Positions 10,236 to 45,327 of a stretch of DNA of 64,000 nucleotides are shown piece by piece. The position numbers were made by a program, and so were the translations under genes. Under the pieces are notes generated by a model. The model saw only the letters and a list, made by a program, of their open reading frames with translations. It was not told the origin of the DNA and did no database searches. Numbering within the stretch: position 1 is the stretch's first letter; each line of letters starts with the position of its first letter. Source of the stretch: Candidatus Omnitrophota bacterium (GTDB lineage: Bacteria; Omnitrophota; Gorgyraeia; Gygaellales; Profunditerraquicolaceae); assembly GCA_030650425.1 (NCBI GenBank), contig JAUSED010000008.1, positions 68,554-132,553 on the forward strand, given 5' to 3'.

Positions 10236-11267
10236 ATGCTTAGCCATAAAACTATTTTGATCACCGGCGGGACAGGGTCATTCGGTAAAAAAATGCTCCA
10301 GATTGTGCTTGCGCAGTATAAACCGAAGCGGCTTATCATCTTCAGCCGCGATGAGTTGAAACAATTCGAGATGGCCCAGAAGTGGGGTCCGCATAAATAT
10401 CCATCTCTTCAGTATGTTTTGGGAGATGTGCGGGATAGGGATCGTTTGATGAGTGTATTTAAAGGAGTTGATTATATTATCCACGCAGCCGCCTTAAAGC
10501 AGGTTCCGGCAGCAGAACGCAACCCGGAAGAATATATCAAGACTAACGTTCTGGGGGCGATGAATATTATCGATGCGGCAATCCAATGCAAGGTTAAGAG
10601 CGTTGTAGCTTTGTCAACTGACAAGGCCTGCAACCCGATCAATCTTTACGGGGCGACCAAGCTCTGTTCCGACAAGCTGTTTACGGCAGCAGGGTTTTTA
10701 GCCACAGAAAATGAAACGCGCTTTGCGGTTGTGCGTTATGGTAATGTTTTGGGCAGCCGTGGGTCGGTTGTGCCGTTTTTTAAGGAACGCCTGAAAACAG
10801 GTGTGTTGCCTATTACGGATGAACGGATGACTCGTTTTTGGATCACACTTGACCAGGCGGCTTATTTTGTTTTGGAATCATTAAAACGTATGAAGGGAGG
10901 CGAGATCTTTGTCCCGCGCATCCCTTCGATGAAGATTGTGGACCTTGCCAAGGCCATAGGGCCTAAATGTAAGCTTGAGGCTGTAGGTATCCGCCCCGGT
11001 GAAAAGATCCACGAGACTCTTATCAGCGAGGATGAGGCGCGTAATACCGTAATATTTAAGGATTGTTTTGTGGTTCAGCATAATGCCACGCTGCGTTCGG
11101 ATCTAGCCAAGGGTAAGGGACGGTTATCCCCCGAAGGATTTAGGTATAATTCTGGTGATAACGATATGTGGCTTTCTATCTCGGATCTTAAAAAACTGGT
11201 TGAGCAAGTCGCAGATGATTATGCCATTGAAGATTCCCGTTGGTCAATGGACGATTTACCGGAGTAA
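10236..11267 (+). CDS. pseB: UDP-N-acetylglucosamine 4,6-dehydratase (inverting), PseB/FlaA1/CapD short form
   Basis: TILITGGTGSFGK; YGATKLCSDKL; about 343 aa. ATG 10236 preferred (GAGGAG RBS 6 nt upstream) over TTG 10224. Confidence 0.75.
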   Translation: MLSHKTILITGGTGSFGKKMLQIVLAQYKPKRLIIFSRDELKQFEMAQKWGPHKYPSLQYVLGDVRDRDRLMSVFKGVDYIIHAAALKQVPAAERNPEEYIKTNVLGAMNIIDAAIQCKVKSVVALSTDKACNPINLYGATKLCSDKLFTAAGFLATENETRFAVVRYGNVLGSRGSVVPFFKERLKTGVLPITDERMTRFWITLDQAAYFVLESLKRMKGGEIFVPRIPSMKIVDLAKAIGPKCKLEAVGIRPGEKIHETLISEDEARNTVIFKDCFVVQHNATLRSDLAKGKGRLSPEGFRYNSGDNDMWLSISDLKKLVEQVADDYAIEDSRWSMDDLPE

Positions 11268-11305
11268 AGTTGAGAAATCTACAGGTAGAAAGTTGGTAGC
11301 TGTTT

Positions 11306-12271
11306 ATGAAAGAAGACCGGTTATTTGATCGTAAAGCATTAAAATTAGAATCCTTATCCCAAAGGAAGAGTGATTTGAATGTTTCCATAATCGCGCCGCT
11401 GGATTTTAACTTAAACTTTAAATCAAACGGTGACTTGAAAGAAATTAGTAAGCGGATAATCAGGGCCAAAAAGAAGAAAGCCTCCGTCATCTGGATGATA
11501 GGCGGGCACGTTATCAGGTCAGGGGTACAGCGATATATCATAGATTTGATGGAGAGAGGATATATTTCCTGTTTGGCGATGAACGGAGCCGGGATAATTC
11601 ATGATTATGAATTATCTCTTATTGGGGCAACTACCGAGAGCGTGGCTCAATATATCAAAGAAGGGCAGTTCGGTTTATGGAAAGAAACAGGAGAAATCAA
11701 TAATATAATCAATAGAAGCTACAAGCAGGGACTTGGTTTGGGCGAGGGAGTTGGTAAAGCTATTTACGAAGGCGATTTTCCTTATAAAGAGTTTAGCCTG
11801 TTGGCAGCAGGTTATCGTTTGAAGATTCCGGTAACGGTGCACGTCGGCATAGGTTATGATATTATCCATGAGCATCCTAATTGCGATGGCGCGGCAACGG
11901 GCGCTACTTCTTACCGCGATTTTCTAATCTTTACCAAATTAGTCAGCAATCTGGAAAGGGGAGTAATCATGAATTTCGGGAGCGCAGTAATGGCCCCGGA
12001 GGTATTCTTGAAGGCCTTGAGCATGGCAAGGAACGCTCTCCGCCGGAAGAAGAAGCAAATCAGGCATTTTACTTCAGTTGTCTGCGACCTTTATAATTTA
12101 CCGGCTAAATTTAACAAAGAACCGGATAAGCGCAATCCGGGTTATTATTTCAGGCCGTGGAAGACAATGCTCGTCAGGACAGTAGCTGACGGAGGAAGCT
12201 CTTTTTACGTCAAAGGCTGCCACGCGGATATTCTCCCTGCGCTTTGGAAAGAGATTAATGAAAATTCTTGA
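11306..12271 (+). CDS. deoxyhypusine-synthase-like (DHS-fold) protein of unknown function
   Basis: Segment VIWMIGGHVIRSGVQRYIIDLMERGYISCLAMNGAGIIHDYE matches the DHS core block [41 protein letters not shown]. 321 aa. Confidence 0.4.
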   Translation: MKEDRLFDRKALKLESLSQRKSDLNVSIIAPLDFNLNFKSNGDLKEISKRIIRAKKKKASVIWMIGGHVIRSGVQRYIIDLMERGYISCLAMNGAGIIHDYELSLIGATTESVAQYIKEGQFGLWKETGEINNIINRSYKQGLGLGEGVGKAIYEGDFPYKEFSLLAAGYRLKIPVTVHVGIGYDIIHEHPNCDGAATGATSYRDFLIFTKLVSNLERGVIMNFGSAVMAPEVFLKALSMARNALRRKKKQIRHFTSVVCDLYNLPAKFNKEPDKRNPGYYFRPWKTMLVRTVADGGSSFYVKGCHADILPALWKEINENS

Positions 12272-12734
12272 AATCGACAGTTTGGCAAAGACAATTAAAG
12301 GCCTGAAGGCTTCCGGAAAAAAGGTTGTCCTCTGTCACGGCTGTTTTGACCTTATGCACCCCGGACATATTAAATATTTTCAAGCCGCTAAAAAAATGGG
12401 GGATATTCTTGTTGTAACGGTTACCCCTGATATTTATATTGATAAAGGGCCGGGGAGGCCGGTATTTAACCAGCAATTACGGGTTGAATCAATCGCCGCC
12501 CTTGAATGCGTTGATTATGTAGCGCTAAATCAGTGGTCCACGGCAGAAGAAACCTTGAGGTTATTAAGGCCTGATATATATGTTAAAGGGCAGGAATTCG
12601 AAGGGCTTCAAGATAAGACTGGGAAACTCCAGAAAGAATTAAAAGTTATTCAGGAAGTCGGAGCCGAAATAAGGTTTACTCATGAGGTGGTATTTTCTTC
12701 AACCAGATTAATTAATAATAACCTTAAAAAATAA
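12258..12734 (+). CDS. cytidylyltransferase-like nucleotidyltransferase (HldE/RfaE domain II-like; heptose-1-phosphate adenylyltransferase family)
   Basis: VVLCHGCFDLMHPGHIKYF; 158 aa stand-alone domain. Confidence 0.7.
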   Translation: MKILEIDSLAKTIKGLKASGKKVVLCHGCFDLMHPGHIKYFQAAKKMGDILVVTVTPDIYIDKGPGRPVFNQQLRVESIAALECVDYVALNQWSTAEETLRLLRPDIYVKGQEFEGLQDKTGKLQKELKVIQEVGAEIRFTHEVVFSSTRLINNNLKK

Positions 12735-12735
12735 A

Positions 12736-14268: not shown

Positions 14269-14271
14269 GAT

Positions 14272-14850: not shown

Positions 14851-14852
14851 AA

Positions 14853-15920: not shown

Positions 15921-15944
15921 TATTAATATGAAAAAAGGATGTTT

Positions 15945-17704: not shown

Positions 17705-17705
17705 G

Positions 17706-18371: not shown

Positions 18372-18380
18372 AAGAAAAAA

Positions 18381-19463: not shown

Positions 19464-19492
19464 GGCTCTAAATCTATGGAGAACGGGGTTCA

Positions 19493-20371: not shown

Positions 20372-20385
20372 CAGGCAGGTCTTCT

Positions 20386-21582: not shown

Positions 21583-21591
21583 GGAGGTTTG

Positions 21592-22101: not shown

Positions 22102-22147
22102 ACTTTTAAAAGACTAGGGGAAACAGAGTAAATAAAAAGGAAAAAAG

Positions 22148-26587: not shown

Positions 26588-26595
26588 TAACCCTT

Positions 26596-34521: not shown

Positions 34522-34545
34522 GCCCTTTATAAAAGGGGGTAATCG

Positions 34546-36156
34546 TTGAGGGTTCTTTTGGTAGTTCCTGATTATGGAACTAGGAAGTATTTTATGCCGG
34601 TAGGCATTATGTATGTTTCTGCTTATTTAAAACAACAGAAGCATGATGTTATTTGCCTTAATCAAAATCATTATCCAGCTGGCCGTCTTAAAGAGTTGTT
34701 GCAAGAAATGCCTTTTGATGTGGTTGCGACCGGAGGACTTTTTGTCGATATTGTTATTTGTCAGAATGTTATTCGAACCGTTCGAGAATACGATCCCAAC
34801 ATAAAAGTGATTTTGGGAGGAGCTATTGCTTCTGCTGACCCGGAGTTTATTATGGGAGAATTGAAGCCGGATTTTTTAGTGATTGGTGAAGGAGAACGGA
34901 CAGCGGATTTACTTTTGAAGGCATTAGAAAATAGAACGTCTCTACGGCAGGTCAATGGTATTGGATTTATCGAAGAGGGAAAGTTGGTAAAAACGCCTCC
35001 GACTTCCTTGATTAAGGATCTTGATACTCTTCCTTTACCGGATTACGAAGGATTTGAATATAATGATTATTTAGATCGAGTTTCTTCGCGTAATCCACAA
35101 CTTTGCTCTATTCGAGGTAATGATCATATGGTAAGGATGGCTCCTGTGTTCTCTAGCCGTGATTGTGTAGCTAAGTGCACGTTTTGCTACCGGCTCATGG
35201 GAGGCAAGTACCGTCTTCGTTCCATTCGCAATGTTATTCGTGAGATTCATTATTTGGTAGATCGTTACAAGGTCAATGAAATTTCTGTTCTTGATGAGAT
35301 GTTCGTGACAGGGAAAGATCGAATTCAGGAGTTTTGTGAGGCTATCAAACCGCTGGGGATTCCTTGGCAGTGTCAGTCGCGAGTGACGGCGGTTAATGAT
35401 GAGATTTTAATAATGATGAAAGAATCGGGATGTTATTTTATTAGTTATGGTTTTGAGAGCGGAAGCCCGACCGTCTTAAAAAGTATGCGCAAGGGAGTTT
35501 CGCCGGAAAGTATGGAGCGGGCGATCAGGTCTACGCAAAAGGCTCGGATGGCGATTCAGGGAAATTTTATTTTTGGTGATCCGGCAGAGACGATGGCCAC
35601 AGCTAGAGAAACAATTCAATTCTCGAGAAAATTTGAGCGCCTTTTTTTGGGGTATGGATTTATTTTTCCTTATCCAGGAACGGAACTTTATAGCAGGCTG
35701 GTCTTACAGGGAAAGATGCCTGATCGGCGGTTATTTTATGAATGCCCCGGGCATAAGTTTTATAATATGACGAACCTGTCAGATATTGATTTTCAGGTAT
35801 TAGTTATGAAGGTCCGGGTTGAACAATTTCGTCGTAACTTACTTTCATCAGGCAAAATTCTCAGTTTAAAGAAAAAGGAGAAGGGTTGGTATTTAATTGA
35901 TTTTCGTTGTCACCATTGCGGCGGTGACAACCCTGGGTGCCTGATGGAGTCTTCCGGGAAGAATATAATAATATGTAAATATTGTTATCAACGGAATGGA
36001 TTTGATCGTGCTGACATCAGGTTTGGAGATGCCCGGGCATTTATCAAAAAGATTCTTTTCTTTTATGTGATGTCGATTCCGGGTTCCTTGTTTTTTTTTA
36101 AGGCTCGTTGTTACTTACGCAATATGAAGGCATGGTTAAAAAAAGGATGTGTATAA
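34546..36156 (+). CDS. cobalamin-binding (class B) radical SAM protein
   Basis: N-terminal B12-binding-like domain (VLLVVPD...GGLF); CVAKCTFC; extra C-terminal Cys (CHHCGG...CKYCYQ). Confidence 0.65.
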   Translation: MRVLLVVPDYGTRKYFMPVGIMYVSAYLKQQKHDVICLNQNHYPAGRLKELLQEMPFDVVATGGLFVDIVICQNVIRTVREYDPNIKVILGGAIASADPEFIMGELKPDFLVIGEGERTADLLLKALENRTSLRQVNGIGFIEEGKLVKTPPTSLIKDLDTLPLPDYEGFEYNDYLDRVSSRNPQLCSIRGNDHMVRMAPVFSSRDCVAKCTFCYRLMGGKYRLRSIRNVIREIHYLVDRYKVNEISVLDEMFVTGKDRIQEFCEAIKPLGIPWQCQSRVTAVNDEILIMMKESGCYFISYGFESGSPTVLKSMRKGVSPESMERAIRSTQKARMAIQGNFIFGDPAETMATARETIQFSRKFERLFLGYGFIFPYPGTELYSRLVLQGKMPDRRLFYECPGHKFYNMTNLSDIDFQVLVMKVRVEQFRRNLLSSGKILSLKKKEKGWYLIDFRCHHCGGDNPGCLMESSGKNIIICKYCYQRNGFDRADIRFGDARAFIKKILFFYVMSIPGSLFFFKARCYLRNMKAWLKKGCV

Positions 36157-36162
36157 AATATC

Positions 36163-37479
36163 ATGAATCTTCAAAAATCGCAGGAGTGCCAAAATAAAGC
36201 CCGTAAATTAATACCCGGTATGACACAGCTTTTGTCCAAACGGCCGGATATGTTTTCGCTTGGTGTGTGGCCAACGTATTACAGTAAGTCCAAAGGCGCG
36301 AAAGTTTGGGATTTAGACGGTAATGTTTATATTGATATGAGTATTGCTGGTATTGGGGCTAATATTCTTGGTTACGCTGATCAGGATATTAATGCCGCGG
36401 TAATTGACGCGATTAAGAACGGTTCAAGTTCATCGTTGAATTGTCCGGAGGAAGTTGATCTTGCGGAAGAATTGTGTAGTTTGCATCCTTGGGCGCAGAT
36501 GGTCCGTTTCGCGCGTAGTGGCGGCGAGTCTATGGCGGTTGCGGTGCGTATTGCGCGGGCGCATACCGGCCGTGATCTTGTGGTGATTTGTGGTTACCAC
36601 GGCTGGCATGACTGGTATCTAGCCGCTAATCTTGGTACCGAGAACGCTTTGGGAGAGCATCTTATTCCTGGATTAAGCCCAACCGGCGTGCCAAAAGCGC
36701 TTAAAGGCACAACGTTAACATTTAAATATAATGATATCGATAGTCTTAAAACGGTGATTGCCGCGCATAAGGGTGAGGTTGCGGCTATTGTTATGGAGCC
36801 GGTGCGTAATATCCAGCCTACGCAGGGTTTTTTGCAGGGTGTTAGATTGCTGACTGATCAGGCAGGCGCTATATTTATTTTTGATGAAATTTCATCAGGT
36901 TTTCGTTTGAATTGTGGTGGGGCGCATATTCTTTACGGGGTTGATCCGGATATAGCAGTTTTTTCAAAGGCTTTGGGCAATGGTTATCCTATTGCGGCTA
37001 TTATTGGCCGTGCCTTCGTTATGGAGTCGGCGCAGAAAAGTTTTATCAGCAGCACGATGTGGACGGAACGTATTGGCCCTGTTGCGGCATTGGCAATGAT
37101 AAAGAAGTTTCGCGCTTTTAAAGCGCACGAGCATCTAATGGAAATAGGGAGGTTGGTCCAGAAGGGTTGGGAGGTTGTTAGTAAGCGTCATGGCTTGCCG
37201 GTTAAGATTTCTGGAATCTATCCGCTTGGTCATTTTGTTTTTGATGATCAGGATCAGCCGGTTATGAAAGCATTTTTTGTGCAGGAAATGCTGGCGAAAG
37301 GATTTTTGGCATCGAACGTTTTTTATTCCATGTTAGCGCATACCAAAGAAGATGTTGAGGCATATTTGATGGCGGCGGATGAGGTGTTTGGGCGCATTAG
37401 GCAGTTAAAAGATAGCGGTAGACTGCGCTCCGCGCTGAAAGGCGAGCCGTCAGCTTCGGGTTTTAAGCGGATGACTTAA
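36163..37479 (+). CDS. class III aminotransferase (glutamate-1-semialdehyde 2,1-aminomutase-like)
   Basis: GSA-aminomutase-like layout with FDEISSGFR. 438 aa. Confidence 0.75.
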   Translation: MNLQKSQECQNKARKLIPGMTQLLSKRPDMFSLGVWPTYYSKSKGAKVWDLDGNVYIDMSIAGIGANILGYADQDINAAVIDAIKNGSSSSLNCPEEVDLAEELCSLHPWAQMVRFARSGGESMAVAVRIARAHTGRDLVVICGYHGWHDWYLAANLGTENALGEHLIPGLSPTGVPKALKGTTLTFKYNDIDSLKTVIAAHKGEVAAIVMEPVRNIQPTQGFLQGVRLLTDQAGAIFIFDEISSGFRLNCGGAHILYGVDPDIAVFSKALGNGYPIAAIIGRAFVMESAQKSFISSTMWTERIGPVAALAMIKKFRAFKAHEHLMEIGRLVQKGWEVVSKRHGLPVKISGIYPLGHFVFDDQDQPVMKAFFVQEMLAKGFLASNVFYSMLAHTKEDVEAYLMAADEVFGRIRQLKDSGRLRSALKGEPSASGFKRMT

Positions 37480-38367
37480 ATGACCGATAGATTAGTTCTT
37501 GGCACTGTTCAATTGGGCATGCCATATGGTATTAGCAATAAAACTGGAAAGCCGGATTTTAATAGTGCATGCGATATGATTAAAACGGCTTTTGATCAAG
37601 ATATTGCATGTTTTGATACCGCCCAGGCTTACGGGGATAGCGAAGAGGTTTTGGGAAGAGTCTTTGCTAAACTTAAGGTAGGCGCGCAGGTAAAGGTTTA
37701 TAGTAAATTGCATCCGCGGCTTGATTTGCATGACGAAGACGCCGTTAGGCAATCAGTTGAGGATTCTTTGCGCAAGCTTAATATGGACCAGCTTGAAGGT
37801 TTGTTGTTGCATGGCGAAGATGGGATACGATTTTGGGATGAAGGGTTGGGCAATGTGTTGAGGGGATTGGTTATCCGGGGGAAAGTGAAGTTGATCGGTG
37901 TTTCGTTTTATACTCCAGAAAAAGCCCTTGATGCTTTGGATGTTGACGGAATCGACATGATACAGGTGCCAGCCAATATATTTGACCGTCGGTTTGAGGA
38001 TGCCGGTGTCTTTAGAAAGGCTCAAGAGCGCGGTAAAGAAGTTTTTATACGTAGCGTGTTTCTTCAGGGCCTTCTTCTGATGGAACCGGAGGCTATCCCT
38101 GAGAAGGTGTGGCTGGCAAGAAGAGCGGTGGCTGAGTTCGCAAAGCTTGCTTCTGTGTGGCGGTTAGATCGTAAAGAGCTGGCCTTAAGATATGTGTTGA
38201 GCAAATGGCGGTATGCGCGGGTAGTCGTTGGAGCAGAAACTGCGCAGCAGGTGGCAGAAAACGTCAAGATCGCTATTCAAGATTTACCCCAGGAATGCAT
38301 GCATCAAATTGATAAGGCATTTAAAAGAGTAGAGCAGAAAATTATTAACCCCGCTGAATGGGCGTAA
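37480..38367 (+). CDS. aldo/keto reductase
   Basis: LVLGTVQLGMPYG; DTAQAYGDSEEVLG. Confidence 0.7.
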   Translation: MTDRLVLGTVQLGMPYGISNKTGKPDFNSACDMIKTAFDQDIACFDTAQAYGDSEEVLGRVFAKLKVGAQVKVYSKLHPRLDLHDEDAVRQSVEDSLRKLNMDQLEGLLLHGEDGIRFWDEGLGNVLRGLVIRGKVKLIGVSFYTPEKALDALDVDGIDMIQVPANIFDRRFEDAGVFRKAQERGKEVFIRSVFLQGLLLMEPEAIPEKVWLARRAVAEFAKLASVWRLDRKELALRYVLSKWRYARVVVGAETAQQVAENVKIAIQDLPQECMHQIDKAFKRVEQKIINPAEWA

Positions 38368-38391
38368 AAATATCGGAGGCAAAAAGTTATC

Positions 38392-39771
38392 ATGAAAGAG
38401 AAGGTTGTTTTATTTTATCCGAGTTTCACAGGCAGCGGTAAATATCATTGGGCGCCATTCCCCTATATTTATTTAGGGCCTTTCTTGGAGAAGGAGGGGT
38501 TTGAAGTCCGGGTGATTGACGCCCGCGTGGATTCGCAATGGAGAATCGTTCTTAAGCGCGCCTTGGACGGTGCCCTTTGCCTAGGGGTTACCTCAATGAC
38601 TGGGCCGGATTATAATGATGCCGTCGAGGCTACGCGTATTGCCAAGGCGATAGATTCTTGGTTCCCTGTGATCTGGGGAGGCCCCCAGGCAACGGATCAG
38701 ACCAGCCTTATCGCGGATATTGCCAGCGTCGATGTAGTGGTCAGGGGGCAGGGAGAGATTGTTTTACGGGAATTTGTTCAGAGGCTTGCTGCGGGCAAGC
38801 CGTATAATGACCTGAAGGGGATTGTGTATAAACACGGGGGAGTTGTTTACGAAAATAAGCCGGCCGAACCGATCCCGTTTGATTATGATATTTTTGAAGG
38901 TTGGCATCTTTTGGATATTGAAAAATACCGTTCCCCGAACAATATTGTTGCTATTTTTACAGCCAGAGGTTGCCCGTTCTCCTGCACTTTTTGCACTACC
39001 GGGGCAAAATCATATTCTGAGCGCAGCTTTGAACAGGTTCAAAGACAGGTTCTATATGTTGTTAATGACCTTAAGTTTGACAACATTTTCATTCAGGATG
39101 GGACTTATTTTTTTAATAAGGACAGGGTTCTAAAAATAGCTCGTTGGTTTGTTGACGTTAACCTGAATATTAAGTGGAAGGCCAAGGCGCGTGCGAATAC
39201 GTTGTTCATCTATTCTGATGAAGAAATGCGCCTATTGAAGAAGTCAGGCCTTGTTTCGATATTCTTTGGAATGGAGTCAGGCTCTGATAAGGTATTGAAG
39301 AATATGAATAAGAATATTAAATCACAAGACGCGGAAAGAAGCGCTAAGATTTGCCGCAGCCATGGCATAGAATTTTATGCATCGTATATGTTCGCTACGC
39401 CTTATGAAACAGTTGAAGACCTTAAAGCTACGATTGAGAGTATGAGACGCATTAAGCAAGTTAATCCAGATGCAGTCATCCAAAATTGTATTTATCTGCC
39501 GCTTCCGGGGACGCCGATGTATGAGCAGGCGCGAGCCTGCGGGTTTGTCCCTCACCTGACTATTGAGGAATGGGGGAACCGGAAGGTAGCGACACACTTT
39601 GATTCAAAAGATTTGGTTACTTGGATTCCCGAAGATATCCTACAGGAGTATATCAAGGTTTATTCACAGGAATTCACGGGTTATAAAAATCTGTGGGAGC
39701 GTGAACTCGATGGTTCATATAAATCGGTATTTAATTCGCCTTCTGGCTCAGAAATGGAGGCTGAAGGTTAA
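38392..39771 (+). CDS. cobalamin-binding (class B) radical SAM protein
   Basis: VVLFYPSF...; ARGCPFSCTFC. Confidence 0.7.
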   Translation: MKEKVVLFYPSFTGSGKYHWAPFPYIYLGPFLEKEGFEVRVIDARVDSQWRIVLKRALDGALCLGVTSMTGPDYNDAVEATRIAKAIDSWFPVIWGGPQATDQTSLIADIASVDVVVRGQGEIVLREFVQRLAAGKPYNDLKGIVYKHGGVVYENKPAEPIPFDYDIFEGWHLLDIEKYRSPNNIVAIFTARGCPFSCTFCTTGAKSYSERSFEQVQRQVLYVVNDLKFDNIFIQDGTYFFNKDRVLKIARWFVDVNLNIKWKAKARANTLFIYSDEEMRLLKKSGLVSIFFGMESGSDKVLKNMNKNIKSQDAERSAKICRSHGIEFYASYMFATPYETVEDLKATIESMRRIKQVNPDAVIQNCIYLPLPGTPMYEQARACGFVPHLTIEEWGNRKVATHFDSKDLVTWIPEDILQEYIKVYSQEFTGYKNLWERELDGSYKSVFNSPSGSEMEAEG

Positions 39772-40310
39772 TGGATACGCTGATAGGAGAGAGGATATAT
39801 TTTAAGAAGCTTGATCCGGATGGGCTTTCGTCATCCTATGTATCTTGGATGAAAGATACAGGGGTTGTGCGGTTTTTGGATAACCCTACTGGAGATTTCA
39901 ACGAAGTCCGCCTAAAAGAATTTGTCTCTAAGATGAATGCAAGCGGACGGGACTATCTTTTTGGTATTTTTTTGAACAAGGATTCCAGACATATCGGTAA
40001 TATTAAGCTGGGTAATGTTCATTCTGTTCATCGGTTCGCTGACCTTGGTATTATTATTGGAGCAAAAGACTGCTGGGGGAGGGGATACGCTACGGAGGCC
40101 GTTTGCCTTTTGACAGATTATGCTTTTGGGCCTTTAAGATTGCGTAAGGTGATTGCCGGAATGTTGGCCGTTAACCAGGCCTCGTACAAAGTTTTTTTAA
40201 AGGCAGGATATCGCGAGGTTGGCCGTTATGCTAAACATCGGCTGGTAAATGGTGTTTTTGTTGATTCTATTATTGTTGAAAAGTGTGCGGATGGGGCAGT
40301 ACCTGGTTAA
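39771..40310 (+). CDS. GNAT-family N-acetyltransferase (candidate PseH-like)
   Basis: GNAT A-motif region GIIIGAKDCWGRGYATEA. 179 aa. Sits beside the Pse genes. Confidence 0.6.
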   Translation: MDTLIGERIYFKKLDPDGLSSSYVSWMKDTGVVRFLDNPTGDFNEVRLKEFVSKMNASGRDYLFGIFLNKDSRHIGNIKLGNVHSVHRFADLGIIIGAKDCWGRGYATEAVCLLTDYAFGPLRLRKVIAGMLAVNQASYKVFLKAGYREVGRYAKHRLVNGVFVDSIIVEKCADGAVPG

Positions 40311-40326
40311 TAAGAAGTGGTGAGAT

Positions 40327-41055
40327 GTGAAGCCGTTAACTGTAGCGATTATTCAGGCGCGTAATGGTTCAACGCGCCTTCCTGGCAAGGTAATGCGCTG
40401 TGTGAATGAGCGCCCGATGGTTATCTGGGTTGTGGACCGTGTTCGAGCAGCTACTTTAGTTGATGAAGTGGTTGTGGCGACAACAGTTGATGCGCAAGAT
40501 GACGCTATGGCCGAGATGCTTTCTGATTCCGGAGTTAGGGTTCTGCGTGGTTCGACGCATGATGTTCTGGATCGGTATTATGTTGCGGCCCGCCAGGTTA
40601 GCGTAGAGAATATTGTTCGGATCACCGCGGATTGCCCTTTGATTGACGCGAGGGTCATCGACGATGTGGTGGGTCTTTTTTTAAAAAGCGGATCTGATTA
40701 TACATGCAATATCATGTCCAGGACTTATCCCGATGGGCAGGATGTGGAGGTTTTTTCTTTCGGTTCTCTGGAGCGGGCCTGGCAAGAAGCTAAAACACCA
40801 AGAGAGCGCGAGCATGTGACGATTTATTTCAGAGAGCATCCGGAGTTCTTTAAGATATCAAATTTGAAGTATGAGCATGAGTGGGGGCATATGCGTTGGA
40901 CGCTTGATTATGCGGAAGATTTTGCTATGATTGAAGAGGTCTTTAGGGCCTTTAAAGGCAGGGAATTAGAAGTTTCTATGGAGGAAATCGCGGCGTTTCT
41001 GCAGAAGAATCCGCAGGTCTGTGCTTTAAACCGTAAATATGCGGTGCAGGGTTGA
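40327..41055 (+). CDS. SpsF/NeuA-family cytidylyltransferase (candidate CMP-nonulosonate synthetase)
   Basis: AIIQARNGSTRLPGKV. 242 aa. GTG start. Confidence 0.6.
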   Translation: MKPLTVAIIQARNGSTRLPGKVMRCVNERPMVIWVVDRVRAATLVDEVVVATTVDAQDDAMAEMLSDSGVRVLRGSTHDVLDRYYVAARQVSVENIVRITADCPLIDARVIDDVVGLFLKSGSDYTCNIMSRTYPDGQDVEVFSFGSLERAWQEAKTPREREHVTIYFREHPEFFKISNLKYEHEWGHMRWTLDYAEDFAMIEEVFRAFKGRELEVSMEEIAAFLQKNPQVCALNRKYAVQG

Positions 41056-42047
41056 TGAAAGTTGCTATTTTGACTGAGGGCGGGAGAGCAAGAGGGCTTG
41101 GGCACGTGGTTCGTTGCCTTTCTTTACGGTTTGCTTTTTTGGAGTCTGGAGCGGAATGCGAGATGTTCATTGATGGGGACGATGCCTTGGGCAGCGTTAT
41201 GTCCGGCGCGCCTTGGCGTTGCTTGCATTGGGTAAGTGACGCGGAGATAATACGCGCTGTTGTTGGCGCCGCGGACATAGTTGTCATTGATTCCTATCTT
41301 GCTGCCCAGAATGTTTATGATGTAGTAGCGGAGAGTAAAAAATTAGCGATGTTTTTTGATGATACGCGCCGGCTGTTATATCCTTGCGGGTATGTGGTTA
41401 ACGCAAGTGCCGAATCTACAGGAACCGGATATCCGCCGCGGCAGGGTGTCAAATATTGCTTGGGGCCAGATTACATTTGTTTACGTCGTGAATTCTGGGA
41501 TCTTACTCCTTTCTTAGTTAGGCCGGATATTAAAAGGGTTTTCTTATCTTTTGGTGCGGTTGACAGTAAGAATATTCTTGGTCGCGTTTTAGGCGCATGC
41601 GTGAGCGCGCGCCCTGATTTGACATATCTGGCTGTGGTTGGGCCGGCGACCAGGAAAGGTCTTTCGTTATTGGAGGCCTACGAAAATGTTCAGTCAGTAG
41701 AATTTCTAAGAGATGTTTCGGTTAATAGGCTTATTAGCGCGATGCAAAGCGTTGATGTTGCGGTGAGTTCTTGCGGGCAGACTATTTATGAACTGGCTAA
41801 AACAGGTGTGCCATCTGTAACGGTGAGAGCCCATGAAAATCAGTACCTGACTTGGCAGATGATGGTAAGTTCAGGCGCTGTATGTGATGGCGGGGCTGTC
41901 AATGAAACACTGGAAGGCAGAGTGTTAGCAGCTCTGCAGGCAATGCAGGCCCCATCACTTAGGCAAGTCTGTCAAGATTCAGGTTGCCGCTTAGTAGACG
42001 GCCAAGGCGCTCGCCGTATCGTGAGCATACTTTTAAAAGGGAAGTAA
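41055..42047 (+). CDS. pseG: UDP-2,4-diacetamido-2,4,6-trideoxy-beta-L-altropyranose hydrolase (PseG/SpsG-like)
   Basis: KVAILTEGGRARGLGHVVRCLSL, the PseG-type N-terminal motif. GT28-like C-terminal half. Confidence 0.65.
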   Translation: MKVAILTEGGRARGLGHVVRCLSLRFAFLESGAECEMFIDGDDALGSVMSGAPWRCLHWVSDAEIIRAVVGAADIVVIDSYLAAQNVYDVVAESKKLAMFFDDTRRLLYPCGYVVNASAESTGTGYPPRQGVKYCLGPDYICLRREFWDLTPFLVRPDIKRVFLSFGAVDSKNILGRVLGACVSARPDLTYLAVVGPATRKGLSLLEAYENVQSVEFLRDVSVNRLISAMQSVDVAVSSCGQTIYELAKTGVPSVTVRAHENQYLTWQMMVSSGAVCDGGAVNETLEGRVLAALQAMQAPSLRQVCQDSGCRLVDGQGARRIVSILLKGK

Positions 42048-42048
42048 T

Positions 42049-43083
42049 ATGGAGCAAGGACCTTTCATTACGATTAACGGGCATCAGGTCGGGCCAGATT
42101 TTCCCGTCTATATCATCGCGGAAATAGGAATCAACCATAACGGTTGTCTTTCGACGGCGCTTGAGATGGTGCGTGTTGCCAAATCGGCAGGGGCGGATGC
42201 TGTTAAAGTTCAGATTCTTACCGCGGATCGTTGTTACAGCCGGAATAGCCCTTCTTATGCTATTTTTAAGAAAGCGGAGCTAACACATGACGATTGGCGT
42301 CTTGTGTTTAAAGAGGCTCAGTTGATCGGAATTGATTGTTTTGCGACATTCGTTGATGTCGCGGACCTGAAGGATTTTTCTGATCTCGTTAAGCCTGCAG
42401 TGAAGATTTCATCCAGCTGTATCACAAATATGCCTTTGTTGGAATATGTGGCAAAGTTAGGTGTGCCGGTCTTGGTCTCTAGCGGAATGAGCGATTTGGA
42501 GGAGGTACGGGAGGCGGTGCGGGTGTTACGCGCGGGCGGACAAAAGGATATCGCGCTTTTTCATTGTACATCGCTTTATCCTGCTCCTATTGAGGCATTG
42601 AATTTACGGGCGATCAGAACCATTGCTAGTGAATTTTCGGATATTCCTGTGGGATATTCTGATCATTCCGCAGGGATAATGGCCTCTGTTCTGTCGGTCG
42701 CGCTTGGTAGCGTTTTGGTCGAGAAACATTTTACTTTGAATAAACAGATGGAAGGCCCTGACCATCATTTTTCAGCTGATCCACAAGAGATGATTGAATT
42801 AGTGACAGCAATTCGTTCGGCTGCGGCAGCATTGGGCCGTGCAGAGAAGGCGCCTGATTCCCAAGAGGTTGCTGCGCGTGGCCACTTGCGCAGGACCATT
42901 GTCGCTTTGCGGGATATTTCAGCTGGAGAGGCCCTTACGCCAGAAAATACGGGATTGAAAAGGTGTGGCTCTATAGGGCTGGCGCCCGGAGAATTAGCAA
43001 ATGTTCTTGGGCGTGTTTTACGCTCTTCTATCAAAAGGGATGACCCGATCACTGAGCGTTTATTCTTGGAGAGTAGTGTATGA
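42049..43083 (+). CDS. pseI: N-acetylneuraminate-synthase-family enzyme (pseudaminic acid synthase PseI-like)
   Basis: YIIAEIGINHNG; TIM-barrel plus C-terminal SAF domain. 344 aa. Confidence 0.75.
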   Translation: MEQGPFITINGHQVGPDFPVYIIAEIGINHNGCLSTALEMVRVAKSAGADAVKVQILTADRCYSRNSPSYAIFKKAELTHDDWRLVFKEAQLIGIDCFATFVDVADLKDFSDLVKPAVKISSSCITNMPLLEYVAKLGVPVLVSSGMSDLEEVREAVRVLRAGGQKDIALFHCTSLYPAPIEALNLRAIRTIASEFSDIPVGYSDHSAGIMASVLSVALGSVLVEKHFTLNKQMEGPDHHFSADPQEMIELVTAIRSAAAALGRAEKAPDSQEVAARGHLRRTIVALRDISAGEALTPENTGLKRCGSIGLAPGELANVLGRVLRSSIKRDDPITERLFLESSV

Positions 43084-44090
43084 AAAAGAAGGTGCTGCTT
43101 ACTTCTTTCGGGGGCGTGTGGTCACTGGCTTTTTATGAGGATTTTTTGAAACGCGGAGATTACCGGGTTTTTTTTGCAGACGTTGATTCGCGCGCCCGCG
43201 CGCGATGTTTTGTGAAGGATTTTTTAACCCTTTTATCTCCCGGTGATCCGCATTACGTTGATGACCTCTTTGCTATTTGCCGCCGTAACGATATTCGATT
43301 TGTTATTCCCGGGGCAGACGAAGAGGCATTAAGGCTTATGCCGGAGCGCGCTCGTTTTGAACGTGCTGGCATTCTTCTGGCTGTTCAAGATATGGAGACG
43401 GCTTTGTGTTTTTCGTCTAAGTCAAGGATGTACGATTTTCTGCGGAAAAAGGGATTTCCTGTGCCATTCTATAAACGTTTCAAGACGAAACAGGGGTTTG
43501 AAGATGCTCTCTTGTCAGCAGAATATCCTGCGCGGCCTCTATTAATAAAGCCTGATAACGGACGAGGGGGCCGGGGGGTAATTTTGTTGTCGCAGCGGGC
43601 ATTTCCAAATAAAGATCAGTTGCAAATAATGGATAGTGCAGCGTTTCGTCAAATGATTGATGATGAACAGGAATATATACTCATGGATTACTTTGAGGCG
43701 GATACGTATGATATGGATGTATTGACTTACGAAGACGGCAGCGTATTTTTTGGGCTGCGTAAAAGATTTGCCAATGTATCTAAGGTTTTTATGGGTAATA
43801 TATTTGAAAGGCATGAACGGATTGAGGAGCTCTGCCGGAAACTTTATAACGTGTTACCGACACGCTACCTTATTGATTACGATATCATTGTTCCTGAGGG
43901 CCGGGAGCCTTTTTTGATGGAAGTCAATCCTAGGCCTAGCGGTAGCACGATATCCTATCTTCCTTTTGGGTATAATTTATATCATATTTTAATGCAGACA
44001 TACTTAGATAAAAAAAAGACAGTGCCGGATGGGTCGTATATCGGTAGGACAGCGCATGCGTTCCATCGTGTTTTGAAGGATGCGAGGTAA
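43080..44090 (+). CDS. ATP-grasp domain protein
   Basis: ATP-grasp layout; LIKPDNGRGGRGV; EVNPRPSGS. Confidence 0.55.
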   Translation: MKKKVLLTSFGGVWSLAFYEDFLKRGDYRVFFADVDSRARARCFVKDFLTLLSPGDPHYVDDLFAICRRNDIRFVIPGADEEALRLMPERARFERAGILLAVQDMETALCFSSKSRMYDFLRKKGFPVPFYKRFKTKQGFEDALLSAEYPARPLLIKPDNGRGGRGVILLSQRAFPNKDQLQIMDSAAFRQMIDDEQEYILMDYFEADTYDMDVLTYEDGSVFFGLRKRFANVSKVFMGNIFERHERIEELCRKLYNVLPTRYLIDYDIIVPEGREPFLMEVNPRPSGSTISYLPFGYNLYHILMQTYLDKKKTVPDGSYIGRTAHAFHRVLKDAR

Positions 44091-44096
44091 GTAAGT

Positions 44097-44837
44097 ATGG
44101 CTGAACAAATTCTGATTGTAGCAGCTCATCCGGATGATGAAGTGATAGGTTGCGGGGGAGCGATCGCTTGGCATTCCGCACGTGGAGATTATGTTCGGAT
44201 GATAATTATGGCGGATGGCGTAACATCAAGAAGCTACAATCCCGATATTCCGGTGCCTCGCGCAGAGGAGTTGTTGGTTTATCAGCAGGCTATTGAGCGT
44301 CGTAAAACCGAGTGCCGGGACGCGGCATCCCTTCTCGGCGTCAAGAAAAACGCTGTTTATTTCTTAGATCTGGCGGATCAACGTTTGGATACATATCCGT
44401 TTCTTGATTTGGTAAAACATATCGAGAAGGTCAAGGGGATTTTTTCTCCGACGCTGGTTTACACACATTTTTTCGGCGATCTTAATTTGGACCATCGTTT
44501 GACTGCTCAGGCTGTGTTGACCGCGTTCCGTCCGCGATTAGGAACTACTGCGGCAGTGAAGCTTTTTGAGGTCTATGAGACAACAAGAATTTCTAATCAG
44601 GCAGGTTATGGTGATTTTGTTCCGGATTATTTATTGGATATTTCGCCGTTTTGGGAGCTTAAGCAGAAGGCTCTTAGTGTTTATGTGAGTGAGAGTTGCA
44701 AGTATCCTCATTTCCGTTCTGTCCAGGCCTTGAGGGAACGGGCTGCTTTTTGGGGGGAGCGATCCGGCGTAAAATATGGAGAGGCTTTTTTGACCCGTTA
44801 CGCAGCTAGTGAGGAAATAGCTTATGGGAAAAGGTAA
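44097..44837 (+). CDS. PIG-L/LmbE-family N-deacetylase
   Basis: ILIVAAHPDDEVIGCGG signature. Confidence 0.8.
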   Translation: MAEQILIVAAHPDDEVIGCGGAIAWHSARGDYVRMIIMADGVTSRSYNPDIPVPRAEELLVYQQAIERRKTECRDAASLLGVKKNAVYFLDLADQRLDTYPFLDLVKHIEKVKGIFSPTLVYTHFFGDLNLDHRLTAQAVLTAFRPRLGTTAAVKLFEVYETTRISNQAGYGDFVPDYLLDISPFWELKQKALSVYVSESCKYPHFRSVQALRERAAFWGERSGVKYGEAFLTRYAASEEIAYGKR

Positions 44838-45327
44838 GGTGTCTTTAACAGGCGCGATAGGAGGCGGTGTACGTTTAAGGCCGGCTCGGGAAAGTGACGC
44901 GGAGTTTCTTTTTAAGCTGCGTAACGATCCTGAGGTTAGGCGCAGCGCCTTTAATGAGAAGCCCCTTGTATGGGAGGAGCATTTAAGTTGGATGGCAAAT
45001 AAATTGGCATCGCATAAGACAACCATCTTCATTGCCGAAGTGGAGGGGCAGCCTGCGGGCCAGGTGCGTTTCGATCTCGAAGAAGAGGGGGCGGTTGTGG
45101 ATATTACTTTAGCGCAACATCTGCGTGGTCGCGGGCTCGGGACGATTCTTCTGGAGCAAGGGGTCGGTCATTTTATTACGATGATGCCGGGAGTTAGTAT
45201 TGTGGCTTATGTGAAGAAAGAAAACACCCCGTCGTTGAGATGCTTTAAGAAGGCGGGATTCAGGGATGAGGGGGCTGTTATTATTCAGGGAACATCTTGT
45301 CACCGGATGCTTTTTTTATCTGATTAA
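44824..45327 (+). CDS. GNAT-family N-acyltransferase
   Basis: GNAT motif A LRGRGLGTILLE. 167 aa. Overlaps the deacetylase stop. Confidence 0.65.
   Translation: MGKGKVSLTGAIGGGVRLRPARESDAEFLFKLRNDPEVRRSAFNEKPLVWEEHLSWMANKLASHKTTIFIAEVEGQPAGQVRFDLEEEGAVVDITLAQHLRGRGLGTILLEQGVGHFITMMPGVSIVAYVKKENTPSLRCFKKAGFRDEGAVIIQGTSCHRMLFLSD

What the first reader, a model, noticed from the sequence alone, without database searches (positions are those of the whole stretch)
10236..45327. Dispersed pseudaminic-acid-like nonulosonate pathway with an unusual reductase-aminotransferase fusion
A PseB-like 4,6-dehydratase (10236), a GNAT (39771), an SpsF-type cytidylyltransferase (40327), a PseG-like hydrolase (41055) and a PseI/NeuB-like synthase (42049) are present. 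The aminotransferase step is supplied by a 714-aa protein in which a DegT/PseC-like PLP domain is fused behind an RmlD-like NAD(P) reductase domain (32377-34521). I do not recognise this fusion as a known architecture. It could channel a 4-keto intermediate to either reduction or transamination, or make a different 4-amino sugar altogether.
Basis: partly seen in the sequence, partly recalled or inferred. Interest (0 to 1): 0.65.

Follow-up and report, generated by a model that had tools for sequence, protein, structure and literature searches.

The report
Reductase-aminotransferase fusion in nonulosonate pathway
A real gene in an uncultured Omnitrophota bacterium joins a sugar-reducing enzyme to the amino-adding enzyme of a sialic-acid-like sugar pathway; the same pair occurs in many bacteria, as separate neighbouring genes in Leptospira interrogans, and nobody has worked out what the reducing half does.

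Summary
ORF 32377-34521 is one uninterrupted 714-aa frame. It has a complete RmlD-family SDR domain (aa 8-305), a roughly 11-aa low-confidence linker, and a complete PseC-type aminotransferase domain (aa 317-714). It is not an artefact. At least 119 database clusters (90% identity) from several phyla share the architecture, and both active sites are invariant across 25 of them. In Leptospira interrogans and a Bacteroidia MAG the two halves are separate, overlapping genes.

The architecture is therefore not unseen. JGI/IMG already labels it bifunctional. The public NCBI protein for this exact sequence, however, starts at a non-conserved Met300 and omits the SDR domain.

The early steps are Pse-type: PseB and the PseC domain both pass NCBIfam equivalog cut-offs. 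The late steps are not canonical. The synthase fell outside the PseI clade in all 100 bootstraps. The cytidylyltransferase is SpsF-like, and the PseG and PseH matches are below cut-off.

The fusion belongs to a conserved, uncharacterised module of HemL-like class-III aminotransferase, aldo/keto reductase, SpsF-like cytidylyltransferase and non-PseI synthase. That module is also known from Aeromonas, Legionella and Vibrionaceae.

My best guess (about 0.4) is that the SDR domain is a WbvR-like 4-ketoreductase acting on PseB's product, so the protein sits at a branch point. I rate this a new variant of a known kind, of moderate interest.

The parts
9679..10218 (+). Winged-helix (HTH_24) regulator directly upstream of PseB
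   Evidence: Pfam HTH_24, E 6.1e-07. A homologue sits directly upstream of PseB in L083 and L084, and an HTH_24/MarR gene does so in L088.
10236..11267 (+). [quoted passage not shown] It lies 21 kb upstream of the rest of the module.
   Evidence: TIGR03589 scores 472.8 bits against a 407.75 cut-off. Best PDB match is FlaA1/PseB 2GN4 at 1.1e-108, against Pen 6BWC at 9.6e-67. In relatives it sits immediately upstream of the fusion (L002, L003, L081, L083).
25334..28188 (+). Two TIGR04372-family putative glycosyltransferases
   Evidence: TIGR04372 scores 237.7 and 222.6 bits against a cut-off of 45. The same pair precedes the ABC gene and the reductase/PseC genes in Leptospira L085 and in L082.
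30559..32370 (+). Fused ABC transporter (membrane plus ATPase domains), probably the glycan exporter or flippase
   Evidence: Pfam ABC_tran and ABC_membrane. It lies immediately upstream of the fusion or gene pair in L001 (separated by 2 genes), L082 and L085.
32377..34521 (+). 714-aa fusion ORF (whole gene, stop codon included)
   Evidence: One uninterrupted frame. 119 of the 120 best database clusters share the two-domain architecture.
32398..33291 (+). N-terminal RmlD-family SDR domain (aa 8-305)
   Evidence: Pfam RmlD_sub_bind, E 7.6e-45. Best PDB matches are RmlD 2GGS (1.2e-25), MAT2B and RmlD 8G22. G13, S15, G16, G19, S116, D118, Y140, K144, R161-T162-N163 and W167 are invariant in 25 fusions.
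33292..33324 (+). Variable linker (aa 306-316)
   Evidence: pLDDT is below 50 for residues 307-312. These columns vary in length and sequence in alignment A1. Met300, the start used in the public annotation, is not conserved.
33325..34518 (+). C-terminal PseC-type PLP aminotransferase domain (aa 317-714)
   Evidence: TIGR03588 PseC scores 473.4 bits against 423.5. PDB matches are ArnB 1MDO (1.4e-58) and H. pylori PseC 2FN6 (2.6e-55). The SFHPVK motif with Lys503 is invariant. Foldseek TMt is 0.92-0.96 to ArnB and PseC.
34546..36156 (+). B12-binding radical SAM enzyme (tailoring role, function unknown)
   Evidence: Pfam B12-binding and Radical_SAM. No NCBIfam family reaches its cut-off. A homologue lies next to the fusion in L001, L002 and L082.
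36163..37479 (+). HemL-like class-III aminotransferase, a conserved partner of the module
   Evidence: Pfam Aminotran_3, E 2.7e-43. Best PDB matches are glutamate-1-semialdehyde aminomutases. It is 48-77% identical across phyla and adjacent to the fusion in L001-L004, L081 and L083.
37480..38367 (+). Aldo/keto reductase, a conserved partner of the module
   Evidence: Pfam Aldo_ket_red, E 2.7e-36. It is fused onto the reductase-PseC protein in P0033/L082, which is 1043 aa. It is fused to the SpsF-like cytidylyltransferase in Vibrionaceae (PMC7371886).
38392..39771 (+). Second B12-binding radical SAM enzyme
   Evidence: Pfam and NCBIfam with no family above cut-off.
39771..40310 (+). GNAT acetyltransferase (candidate N-acyltransferase)
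   Evidence: Pfam Acetyltransf_3, E 1.7e-21. The PseH model scores only 27 bits against 93.1.
40327..41055 (+). SpsF-like CTP_transf_3 cytidylyltransferase (candidate CMP-nonulosonate synthetase)
   Evidence: Pfam CTP_transf_3, E 2.9e-31. The PseF model scores 32 bits against 205.7. It is fused to the class-III aminotransferase in L059, which is 680 aa.
41055..42047 (+). Distant PseG-like protein (candidate UDP-sugar hydrolase)
   Evidence: TIGR03590 scores 102 bits against 153.55. No PDB sequence match at E 1e-3.
42049..43083 (+). NeuB-family nonulosonate synthase, not of the PseI clade
   Evidence: Pfam NeuB (2e-71) and SAF. NeuB_NnaB scores 299 against 399.65 and PseI 257 against 340.25. 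It is about equally distant from SpsE, 6NCS, PseI and NmNeuB. It fell inside the PseI core clade in 0 of 100 bootstraps.
43080..45327 (+). ATP-grasp ligase, PIG-L-type de-N-acetylase and a second GNAT (likely N-acyl remodelling)
   Evidence: Pfam ATP-grasp_3, PIG-L (1.3e-24) and Acetyltransf_3. The second GNAT scores 41.9 on PseH against 93.1. The remodelling role is inferred.

Best explanation
ORF 32377-34521 encodes a genuine bifunctional enzyme of a nonulosonic-acid (sialic-acid-like sugar) pathway.

Shown: PseB (10236-11267) is of the type that converts UDP-GlcNAc to UDP-2-acetamido-2,6-dideoxy-beta-L-arabino-hexos-4-ulose. The C-terminal domain is a PseC-type PLP aminotransferase, which would turn that 4-ketone into UDP-4-amino-4,6-dideoxy-L-AltNAc.

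Inferred: the N-terminal domain is an NAD(P)H-dependent C4-ketoreductase of the RmlD/WbvR kind that uses the same 4-keto sugar. It would give a UDP-2-acetamido-2,6-dideoxy-L-hexose of the L-6dAltNAc type. The protein would then sit at the branch point after PseB and deliver both a 4-amino and a 4-hydroxy product.

Downstream, a conserved module processes these products into a CMP-activated nonulosonate that is related to canonical pseudaminic acid but not identical to it. The module comprises a HemL-like class-III aminotransferase, an aldo/keto reductase, a GNAT, an SpsF-like cytidylyltransferase, a distant PseG-like protein and a non-PseI NeuB-family synthase. The exact roles of the class-III aminotransferase and the aldo/keto reductase are not known.
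For: The fusion is real.
- It is one uninterrupted frame.
- 119 of the 120 best clusters are two-domain proteins of 700-1043 aa, from Omnitrophota, Phycisphaerales and other phyla.
- True fusions occur in Omnitrophota, Thermodesulfobacteriota, Uhrbacteria, Chloroflexi and Bacteroidota genomes.
- The Gly-rich NAD(P) motif, S116/D118, Y140xxxK144, the RTNxFGW motif and the PLP lysine K503 are invariant in 25 sequences sharing 49-69% identity.

The two halves form a functional pair.
- They are separate, overlapping genes in Leptospira interrogans (L085: 10001-10891 and 10888-12066) and in a Bacteroidia MAG (L069).
- In the PseC-domain tree, fused and unfused pairs mix in one clade, while a second clade is made up of fusions apart from one short-contig sequence, L005.

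The N-domain looks like a reductase acting on PseB's product.
- It is RmlD-family by Pfam and by PDB matches.
- PseB directly precedes the fusion or the stand-alone homologue in L002, L003, L069, L081, L083, L084, L086 and L088.
- In L084, L086 and L089 the PseB plus RmlD-like pair has no DegT gene nearby. That is the pattern of a two-step dehydratase/reductase pathway.

There is an enzymatic precedent. WbvB/WbvR/WbvD make UDP-L-QuiNAc (PMC6765297), and the E. coli counterpart QnlA is described as a dTDP-4-dehydrorhamnose reductase homologue (PMC7685785).

There is a chemical precedent. L-6dAltNAc and a 3,5,9-trideoxy (7-hydroxy) nonulosonate occur in the Fusobacterium nucleatum 25586 O-antigen (PMC13014188 and PMC7371886).

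Some loci appear to make two products. L085 and L007 each carry one bona fide PseI (99 of 100 bootstraps) and one non-PseI synthase embedded in the aldo/keto reductase, cytidylyltransferase and class-III aminotransferase block.
Against: - No biochemical data exist for any member of the fusion or of the gene pair.
- It is unusual for two enzymes that compete for one substrate to be fused.
- The window has only one synthase, so a two-product model requires that synthase to accept both sugars, or requires one product to be used directly as a glycan residue.
- A stand-alone homologue also lies between a dehydratase and a DegT gene in a legionaminic-type cluster (L088). Another lies between the cytidylyltransferase and NeuB with no PseB or PseC nearby (L087). 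These contexts fit a more general or later role.
- The aldo/keto reductase, the class-III aminotransferase and the cytidylyltransferase are linked to the fusion by other fusions (PMC7371886). This hints that the SDR domain may cooperate with them rather than simply reduce C4.
- The rmlD equivalog cut-off is not met (152 vs 224).
Confidence: 0.4

Rival explanations
1. The SDR domain does not reduce PseB's product. It works with the aldo/keto reductase and the class-III aminotransferase on another carbonyl or alcohol. It might act in the oxidative direction to create a ketone that is then transaminated or re-reduced (an OH-to-NH2 change or an epimerisation). It might instead act on the free or CMP-bound nonulosonate. 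Either route would give a new stereoisomer or an extra amino group.
For: - The module has two reductase/aminotransferase pairs: SDR with PseC, and aldo/keto reductase with class-III aminotransferase.
- A network of fusions links its members: SDR~PseC~AKR in P0033/L082, AKR~cytidylyltransferase in Vibrionaceae (PMC7371886), and class-III aminotransferase~cytidylyltransferase in L059.
- A stand-alone homologue sits between the cytidylyltransferase and NeuB in Helicovermis (L087), and another sits inside a legionaminic-type cluster (L088).
- The synthase next to these genes is never PseI.
Against: - Characterised RmlD-family enzymes are NAD(P)H-dependent 4-ketoreductases of NDP-6-deoxy-L-hexoses. 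This rests on established knowledge of the family.
- PseB plus RmlD-like pairs occur without any aminotransferase or synthase nearby (L086, L089).
Confidence: 0.3
2. The SDR domain plays the role of Pal in the Bacillus thuringiensis Pen-Pal-Pam route. It would finish formation of the 4-keto sugar from a 5,6-ene intermediate and hand it to the fused aminotransferase.
For: The gene order dehydratase, SDR, aminotransferase matches the Pen, Pal and Pam reaction sequence. That sequence is described in PMC7439481 and PMC5109656.
Against: - The N-domain matches Pal (6BWL) only at E 7e-07, and only over residues 46-156. It matches RmlD at 1e-25 over its full length.
- The window's dehydratase is far closer to FlaA1/PseB (366 bits) than to Pen (228 bits), so a Pal step should not be needed.
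Confidence: 0.1
3. The SDR domain is a non-catalytic, MAT2B-like nucleotide-binding or scaffolding domain that regulates or stabilises PseC.
For: MAT2B, a regulatory RmlD-fold protein, is among the best PDB matches (4NDN, 4.2e-25).
Against: The catalytic Ser/Tyr/Lys residues, the Gly-rich motif and the RmlD-type substrate motifs are invariant in 25 fusions. Stand-alone homologues are common: 1468 clusters (50% identity) at E <= 1e-30.
Confidence: 0.06
4. The 714-aa ORF is an assembly or frameshift artefact, or the true gene is only the PseC half starting at Met300, as in the public annotation.
For: The public protein P0004 (415 aa) equals residues 300-714 exactly.
Against: - There is no stop codon between the halves.
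- The same architecture is found on well over a hundred independent contigs.
- The linker is conserved with the closest relatives.
- Met300 is not conserved.
- The SDR part has no stop codon of its own, so it can only be made as part of the fusion.
Confidence: 0.02

Closest known systems
[quoted passage not shown]
   Same: The dehydratase and the C-terminal domain both pass the NCBIfam equivalog cut-offs. Their best or near-best solved relatives are FlaA1/PseB (2GN4) and PseC (2FN6).
   Different: Canonical PseC is a single-domain protein of about 375 aa. Here it carries a 305-aa RmlD-like domain. The later Pse enzymes (PseH, PseG, PseI, PseF) are replaced by divergent or different proteins.
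WbvB/WbvR/WbvD (Vibrio cholerae O37) and QnlA/QnlB: the UDP-L-RhaNAc / UDP-L-QuiNAc pathway
   Same: A PseB-family dehydratase is followed by an RmlD-like C4 reductase acting on a UDP-4-keto-6-deoxy-L-HexNAc (PMC6765297, PMC7685785). The PseB plus RmlD-like gene pairs in L084, L086 and L089 have the same layout.
   Different: No 2-epimerase partner is seen here. The reductase is fused to an aminotransferase and sits in a nonulosonate cluster. I made no direct sequence comparison with WbvR, because no reference sequence was available.
Pen-Pal-Pam, the seven-enzyme CMP-Pse route of Bacillus thuringiensis
   Same: The order of steps is dehydratase, then SDR, then aminotransferase.
   Different: The N-domain is not a Pal homologue beyond the general SDR fold. 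The dehydratase is PseB-like rather than Pen-like.
Leptospira interrogans locus (CP039283, L085) with separate RmlD-like and DegT genes
   Same: The gene set and order match the window: two TIGR04372 glycosyltransferases, ABC transporter, RmlD-like, PseC-like, aldo/keto reductase, NeuB, cytidylyltransferase, class-III aminotransferase, PseG-like and GNAT.
   Different: The two halves are separate genes that overlap by 4 bases. A second synthase, a true PseI type, is present. Identity to the window is 33% for the SDR and 43% for PseC. I found no functional study of this gene pair.
Pse-type clusters carrying an aldo/keto reductase and a class-III aminotransferase: Aeromonas group I flagellin glycosylation islands, Legionella pneumophila Sg6/Sg12 O-antigen loci, Vibrionaceae nab clusters
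   Same: All have PseB, PseC, an aldo/keto reductase, a cytidylyltransferase, a class-III aminotransferase, often PseG, and a NeuB-family synthase (PMC7874193, PMC3694923, PMC7371886).
   Different: Those clusters have a plain PseC with no RmlD-like domain. The roles of the two accessory enzymes are not established in those papers.

Membership tests
CMP-pseudaminic acid pathway | [quoted passage not shown] | tested here: met
   TIGR03589 scores 472.8 against 407.75. FlaA1/PseB 2GN4 matches at 1.1e-108.
CMP-pseudaminic acid pathway | PseC: UDP-4-keto-6-deoxy-L-AltNAc 4-aminotransferase | tested here: met
   TIGR03588 scores 473.4 against 423.5 on aa 317-713. The PLP lysine is conserved.
CMP-pseudaminic acid pathway | PseH: N-acetyltransferase | tested here: not met
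   The two GNATs score 27 and 41.9 bits on TIGR03585, against a cut-off of 93.1. A GNAT could still carry out this step.
CMP-pseudaminic acid pathway | PseG: UDP-sugar hydrolase | tested here: inconclusive
   TIGR03590 scores 102 bits against 153.55 over nearly the full profile. No PDB sequence match.
CMP-pseudaminic acid pathway | PseI: pseudaminic acid synthase | tested here: not met
   TIGR03586 scores 257 against 340.25. The synthase fell inside the PseI core clade in 0 of 100 NJ bootstraps. True PseI genes of L085 and L007 fell inside in 99 of 100.
CMP-pseudaminic acid pathway | PseF: CMP-Pse synthetase | tested here: not met
   TIGR03584 scores 32 bits against 205.7. The enzyme is an SpsF-like CTP_transf_3 protein.
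RmlD (dTDP-4-dehydrorhamnose reductase) | RmlD fold with the Ser/Thr-Tyr-Lys catalytic residues and a Gly-rich NAD(P) motif | tested here: met
   Pfam PF04321, E 7.6e-45. Full-length alignments to RmlD structures. The residues are invariant.
RmlD (dTDP-4-dehydrorhamnose reductase) | Equivalog-level similarity, and a place in an rmlABCD pathway | tested here: not met
   TIGR01214 scores 152 against 224.05. The neighbours are nonulosonate genes. The rmlA- and rmlB-like genes at 1080-3886 have their own RmlD-like ORF at 2049-2870.
WbvR/QnlA-type UDP-4-keto-6-deoxy-L-HexNAc 4-reductases | RmlD-like reductase paired with a PseB/FnlA-family dehydratase | tested here: met
   PseB directly precedes the fusion or the stand-alone homologue in L002, L003, L069, L081, L083, L084, L086 and L088.
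WbvR/QnlA-type UDP-4-keto-6-deoxy-L-HexNAc 4-reductases | Reductase activity on the UDP-4-keto sugar, and sequence grouping with WbvR | not testable with these tools
   No WbvR reference sequence or assay was available.
Pal (B. thuringiensis UDP-6-deoxy-GlcNAc-5,6-ene 4-oxidase/5,6-reductase) | Homology to Pal (6BWL), and partnership with a Pen-type 5,6-dehydratase | tested here: not met
   6BWL matches at E 7e-07 over residues 46-156 only. The dehydratase is closer to PseB than to Pen.

The most novel reading that the evidence does not exclude
The linked set of RmlD-like reductase, PseC, aldo/keto reductase, HemL-like class-III aminotransferase, SpsF-like cytidylyltransferase and non-PseI synthase builds a nonulosonic acid that has not yet been described. 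Examples would be a 7-hydroxy or extra-amino sugar, or a new stereoisomer. The set is widespread in uncultured phyla and is also present in Leptospira interrogans, Aeromonas and Legionella. Under this reading, the fusion in this window is the Rosetta-stone clue that the reductase belongs to that pathway.
Probability: 0.35. Interest if true: 0.65.

Novelty: new variant of a known kind. Interest (0 to 1): 0.5.

Why it matters
Nonulosonic acids decorate flagella, lipopolysaccharide and capsules, and they shape immune recognition. The known routes (Neu, Leg, Pse) do not use an RmlD-like reductase, an aldo/keto reductase or a class-III aminotransferase. Yet these genes recur together in hundreds of clusters, including clusters in pathogens.

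The fusion gives direct genetic evidence that the reductase works alongside PseC. It also yields a simple testable prediction: reduction versus amination of a single 4-keto sugar.

There is a practical point for annotation too. The public record for this exact sequence starts the gene at an internal methionine, and the SDR domain is lost.

Tried and rejected
- **Pal hypothesis.** I considered that the SDR domain is the Pal of the Pen/Pal/Pam route. I rejected it on the PDB comparisons.
- **Artefact or misjoined genes.** Rejected.
- **Apparent N-terminal matches in the genome scan.** Many tblastn matches in the genome-contig scan that seemed to cover query residues 5-70 onward were the neighbouring PseB gene, not fusions. 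An ORF-level BLAST cut the true fusions among the 80 loci to L001-L004, L006, L007 and L012.
[quoted passage not shown] The original Pen/Pal papers are not held in the library.
- **Source contig.** Look-ups of P0004 and of the full 714-aa product returned nothing, so I could not inspect the source contig's own gene calls.
- **PseG-like protein.** A PDB sequence search found nothing.
- **Foldseek on the full model.** It returned only single-domain aminotransferases (TMq at most 0.50). No solved structure among the hits listed covers both domains.
- **Synthase placement.** Its position relative to Leg and Neu synthases stayed unresolved. I had only four reference sequences, rebuilt from HMMER alignments, and only NJ trees.

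Full report
**What is in the window**

The whole 64-kb window is one co-directional (+ strand) locus of sugar-nucleotide and glycan genes. An identical C-terminal protein in NCBI is labelled Candidatus Omnitrophota MAG.

**The fusion ORF**

ORF 32377-34521 is a single 714-codon frame.
- Pfam finds RmlD_sub_bind at aa 8-296 (E 7.6e-45) and DegT_DnrJ_EryC1 at aa 324-709 (E 1.4e-110).
- NCBIfam scores the C-terminal half above the PseC equivalog cut-off (473.4 vs 423.5). It scores the N-terminal half as rmlD-like below cut-off (152 vs 224).
- Both halves align end to end with solved single-domain proteins: RmlD 2GGS, 8G22 and 3SC6 and MAT2B for the N-half, and ArnB and H. pylori PseC for the C-half.
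- An AlphaFold2 model built from 25 homologues has mean pLDDT 88.7. Only residues 1-4 and 307-312 fall below 50, which puts the linker at about aa 306-316. The pTM of 0.61 means the relative orientation of the domains is not determined.
- Foldseek against the PDB returns only aminotransferases covering half of the model (TMq at most 0.50). No solved structure among the hits listed has this architecture.

**Artefact or real?**

It is real.
- Of the 120 best database clusters (90% identity), 119 are 700-1043 aa and carry both Pfam domains. JGI labels several of them 'PseC / dTDP-4-dehydrorhamnose reductase'.
- A scan of one genome per species, checked at ORF level, gave true fusions in Omnitrophota, Thermodesulfobacteriota, Uhrbacteria, Chloroflexi and Bacteroidota. 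Context look-ups added a complete Phycisphaerales chromosome.
- In an alignment of 25 fusions (49-69% identical to the window) the following are invariant: the NAD(P) motif (G13, S15, G16, G19), S116-x-D118, Y140xxxK144, the RmlD-type RTNxFGW motif and the PLP lysine K503. The linker varies.
- The one exception is informative. P0004 (415 aa, NCBI) is exactly residues 300-714 of this ORF. The public annotation therefore begins at an internal Met that is not conserved in the family, and it drops the SDR domain.

**The two halves are a conserved pair**

- Stand-alone proteins of about 305 aa that are 33-47% identical to the N-domain are common. At E <= 1e-30 there are 1468 clusters (50% identity), and most are single-domain.
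- In Leptospira interrogans such a gene (P0186) overlaps the start of a PseC-like DegT gene by four bases (L085). A Bacteroidia MAG has the same arrangement (L069).
- In an NJ tree of PseC domains, one clade consists of fusions apart from one short-contig sequence (L005). It contains the window, L001-L004 and L081-L083. A second clade mixes Bacteroidota fusions with the unfused Leptospira and Bacteroidia pairs. Fusion or fission has therefore happened more than once around a stable partnership.

**The module around it**

The genes next to the fusion are also conserved. They are a HemL-like class-III aminotransferase (36163-37479; 48-77% identical across phyla), an aldo/keto reductase (37480-38367), an SpsF-like cytidylyltransferase (40327-41055) and a NeuB-family synthase (42049-43083). 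PseB, often preceded by an HTH_24 regulator, usually lies directly upstream of the fusion. In the window, PseB and its regulator (9679-11267) are separated from the rest by 21 kb of other sugar genes, so 'dispersed' is a fair description.

The Leptospira locus is syntenic with window 25334-45327 almost gene for gene.

Other fusions tie the members together:
- SDR~PseC~aldo/keto reductase (P0033, 1043 aa)
- class-III aminotransferase~cytidylyltransferase (L059, 680 aa)
- aldo/keto reductase~SpsF-like cytidylyltransferase in Vibrionaceae (PMC7371886)

[quoted passage not shown] This is seen in 13 of the fetched loci, in Aeromonas group I flagellin glycosylation islands (PMC7874193) and in Legionella pneumophila Sg6/Sg12 O-antigen loci (PMC3694923). 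None of these papers assigns the two enzymes a function.

**Is it a pseudaminic acid pathway?**

The early steps are. PseB passes its equivalog cut-off and is far closer to FlaA1/PseB (366 bits) than to Pen (228 bits). The PseC domain passes too.

The late steps are not canonical.
- PseG scores 102 against 153.55.
- PseH scores 27 and 42 against 93.1.
- PseF scores 32 against 205.7.
- The synthase is below both the NeuB cut-off (299 vs 399.65) and the PseI cut-off (257 vs 340.25).

The synthase is about equally distant from SpsE, a Leptospira-type NeuB (6NCS), C. jejuni PseI and N. meningitidis NeuB. It fell inside the PseI core clade in 0 of 100 NJ bootstraps, and its nearest reference is unresolved.

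The pattern generalises. The synthase embedded in the aldo/keto reductase, cytidylyltransferase and class-III aminotransferase block is never PseI. This holds for L001, L004, L007, L012, L081, L083, L084 and L085, each 0 of 100. When a locus has a second synthase, that one is PseI (L085 and L007, 99 of 100).

These trees have limits. They are NJ trees with simple distances. They use four references rebuilt from HMMER alignments. The loci were retrieved through PseC, so the sample is biased.

**What the SDR domain most likely does**

I first tested the idea that it is Pal of the Bacillus Pen/Pal/Pam route (PMC7439481, PMC5109656). Pal (6BWL) matches only at 7e-07, over about 110 residues, and the dehydratase is PseB-like. 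I rejected the idea.

The domain has every hallmark of an active RmlD-type NDP-sugar 4-ketoreductase. It, or its stand-alone homologue, follows PseB directly in most loci. In three loci (L084, L086, L089) the PseB plus RmlD-like pair has no DegT gene nearby, as expected for a two-step dehydratase/reductase route.

A precedent exists. WbvB/WbvR/WbvD make UDP-L-QuiNAc, and the reductase of that route is an RmlD homologue (PMC6765297, PMC7685785).

The predicted product class is also known in nature. L-6dAltNAc and a 3,5,9-trideoxy (7-hydroxy) nonulosonate occur in the Fusobacterium nucleatum 25586 O-antigen.

I therefore favour, at about 0.4, a branch-point enzyme in which one 4-keto sugar is either reduced or aminated. 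This is an inference. No member of the family has been assayed.

**What argues against this, and the rivals**

- Fusing two enzymes that compete for one substrate is odd.
- The window has only one synthase.
- Homologues occur in a legionaminic-type cluster (L088) and between the cytidylyltransferase and NeuB without PseB or PseC (L087).
- The network of fusions with the aldo/keto reductase, class-III aminotransferase and cytidylyltransferase suggests that the SDR may act with them on another carbonyl or on the nonulosonate itself. I give that rival about 0.3.
- A Pal-like role (0.1), a regulatory MAT2B-like role (0.06) and an artefact (0.02) are less likely.

**Verdict**

The fusion is a genuine, widespread, already catalogued but functionally uncharacterised variant of a known kind of enzyme. 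It sits in a nonulosonate module whose product is probably not canonical pseudaminic acid. Interest is moderate (0.5). Its value is as a Rosetta-stone link and as a cleanly testable prediction for a pathway that also exists in Leptospira, Aeromonas and Legionella.

Noticed in passing
window 53847-62013: A second conserved block: GFO_IDH_MocA oxidoreductase, methyltransferase, SIS_2, TAL_FSA aldolase, HpcH/HpaI aldolase, HAD phosphatase, two SDRs, a KdsB-like cytidylyltransferase (NF009905, 263.8 bits against a 255 cut-off) and a 2-hydroxyacid dehydrogenase. The same order occurs in two other Omnitrophota contigs (L086, L089), there just after a PseB plus RmlD-like pair. It may be an aldolase-based route to another ulosonic acid.
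   Followed up: partly
window 11306-24571: The 21 kb between PseB and the rest of the module encode another elaborate sugar pathway. It includes an HldE-like kinase/nucleotidyltransferase, a GmhA-like SIS protein, two radical SAM enzymes (one with a weak SPASM-domain match), a split transketolase, two C-methyltransferases carrying the Methyltransf_13 and Methyltransf_14 domains, other methyltransferases and SDRs.
   Followed up: no
window 34546-36156, 38392-39771, 45352-47031: Three B12-binding radical SAM genes are interleaved with the nonulosonate genes. None reaches any NCBIfam cut-off. Homologues also lie beside the fusion in L001, L002 and L082. They may methylate the sugar or its N-acyl groups.
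   Followed up: no
window 33274 (Met300 of ORF 32377-34521): The public NCBI protein P0004 (415 aa, Candidatus Omnitrophota MAG) is exactly residues 300-714 of the ORF. The deposited annotation starts at an internal, non-conserved Met and omits the SDR domain.
   Followed up: yes
L082 10001-13132; L059 12092-14131: There are further fusions within the same module. One is SDR~PseC~aldo/keto reductase (1043 aa). The other is class-III aminotransferase~SpsF-like cytidylyltransferase (680 aa, Rhodocyclaceae MAG).
   Followed up: partly
L085 (Leptospira interrogans CP039283, 2535308-2556198): A pathogen locus is syntenic with window 25334-45327. It carries two synthases, one PseI type and one non-PseI, plus a CN_hydrolase gene. 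I found no functional study of the RmlD-like / DegT pair.
   Followed up: partly
window 6825-7559: A papain-family (Peptidase_C1) cysteine protease ORF sits among the sugar-nucleotide genes. A 68%-identical homologue is in the Omnitrophota locus L028.
   Followed up: no
window 48123-53872: An AsnB-type glutamine amidotransferase (TIGR01536, 291 bits against 267) could make amidino or amide modifications. It is followed by two large ORFs, one with a PFTS-motif polysaccharide biosynthesis match (TIGR04417, 110.8 against 100).
   Followed up: no
window 1080-3886: RmlA-like and RmlB-like genes flank a short RmlD-like ORF (2049-2870, 273 aa; RmlD_sub_bind E 2.1e-13). The locus therefore has a separate candidate dTDP-rhamnose-type reductase distinct from the fused domain. 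No RmlC-like gene was seen.
   Followed up: no
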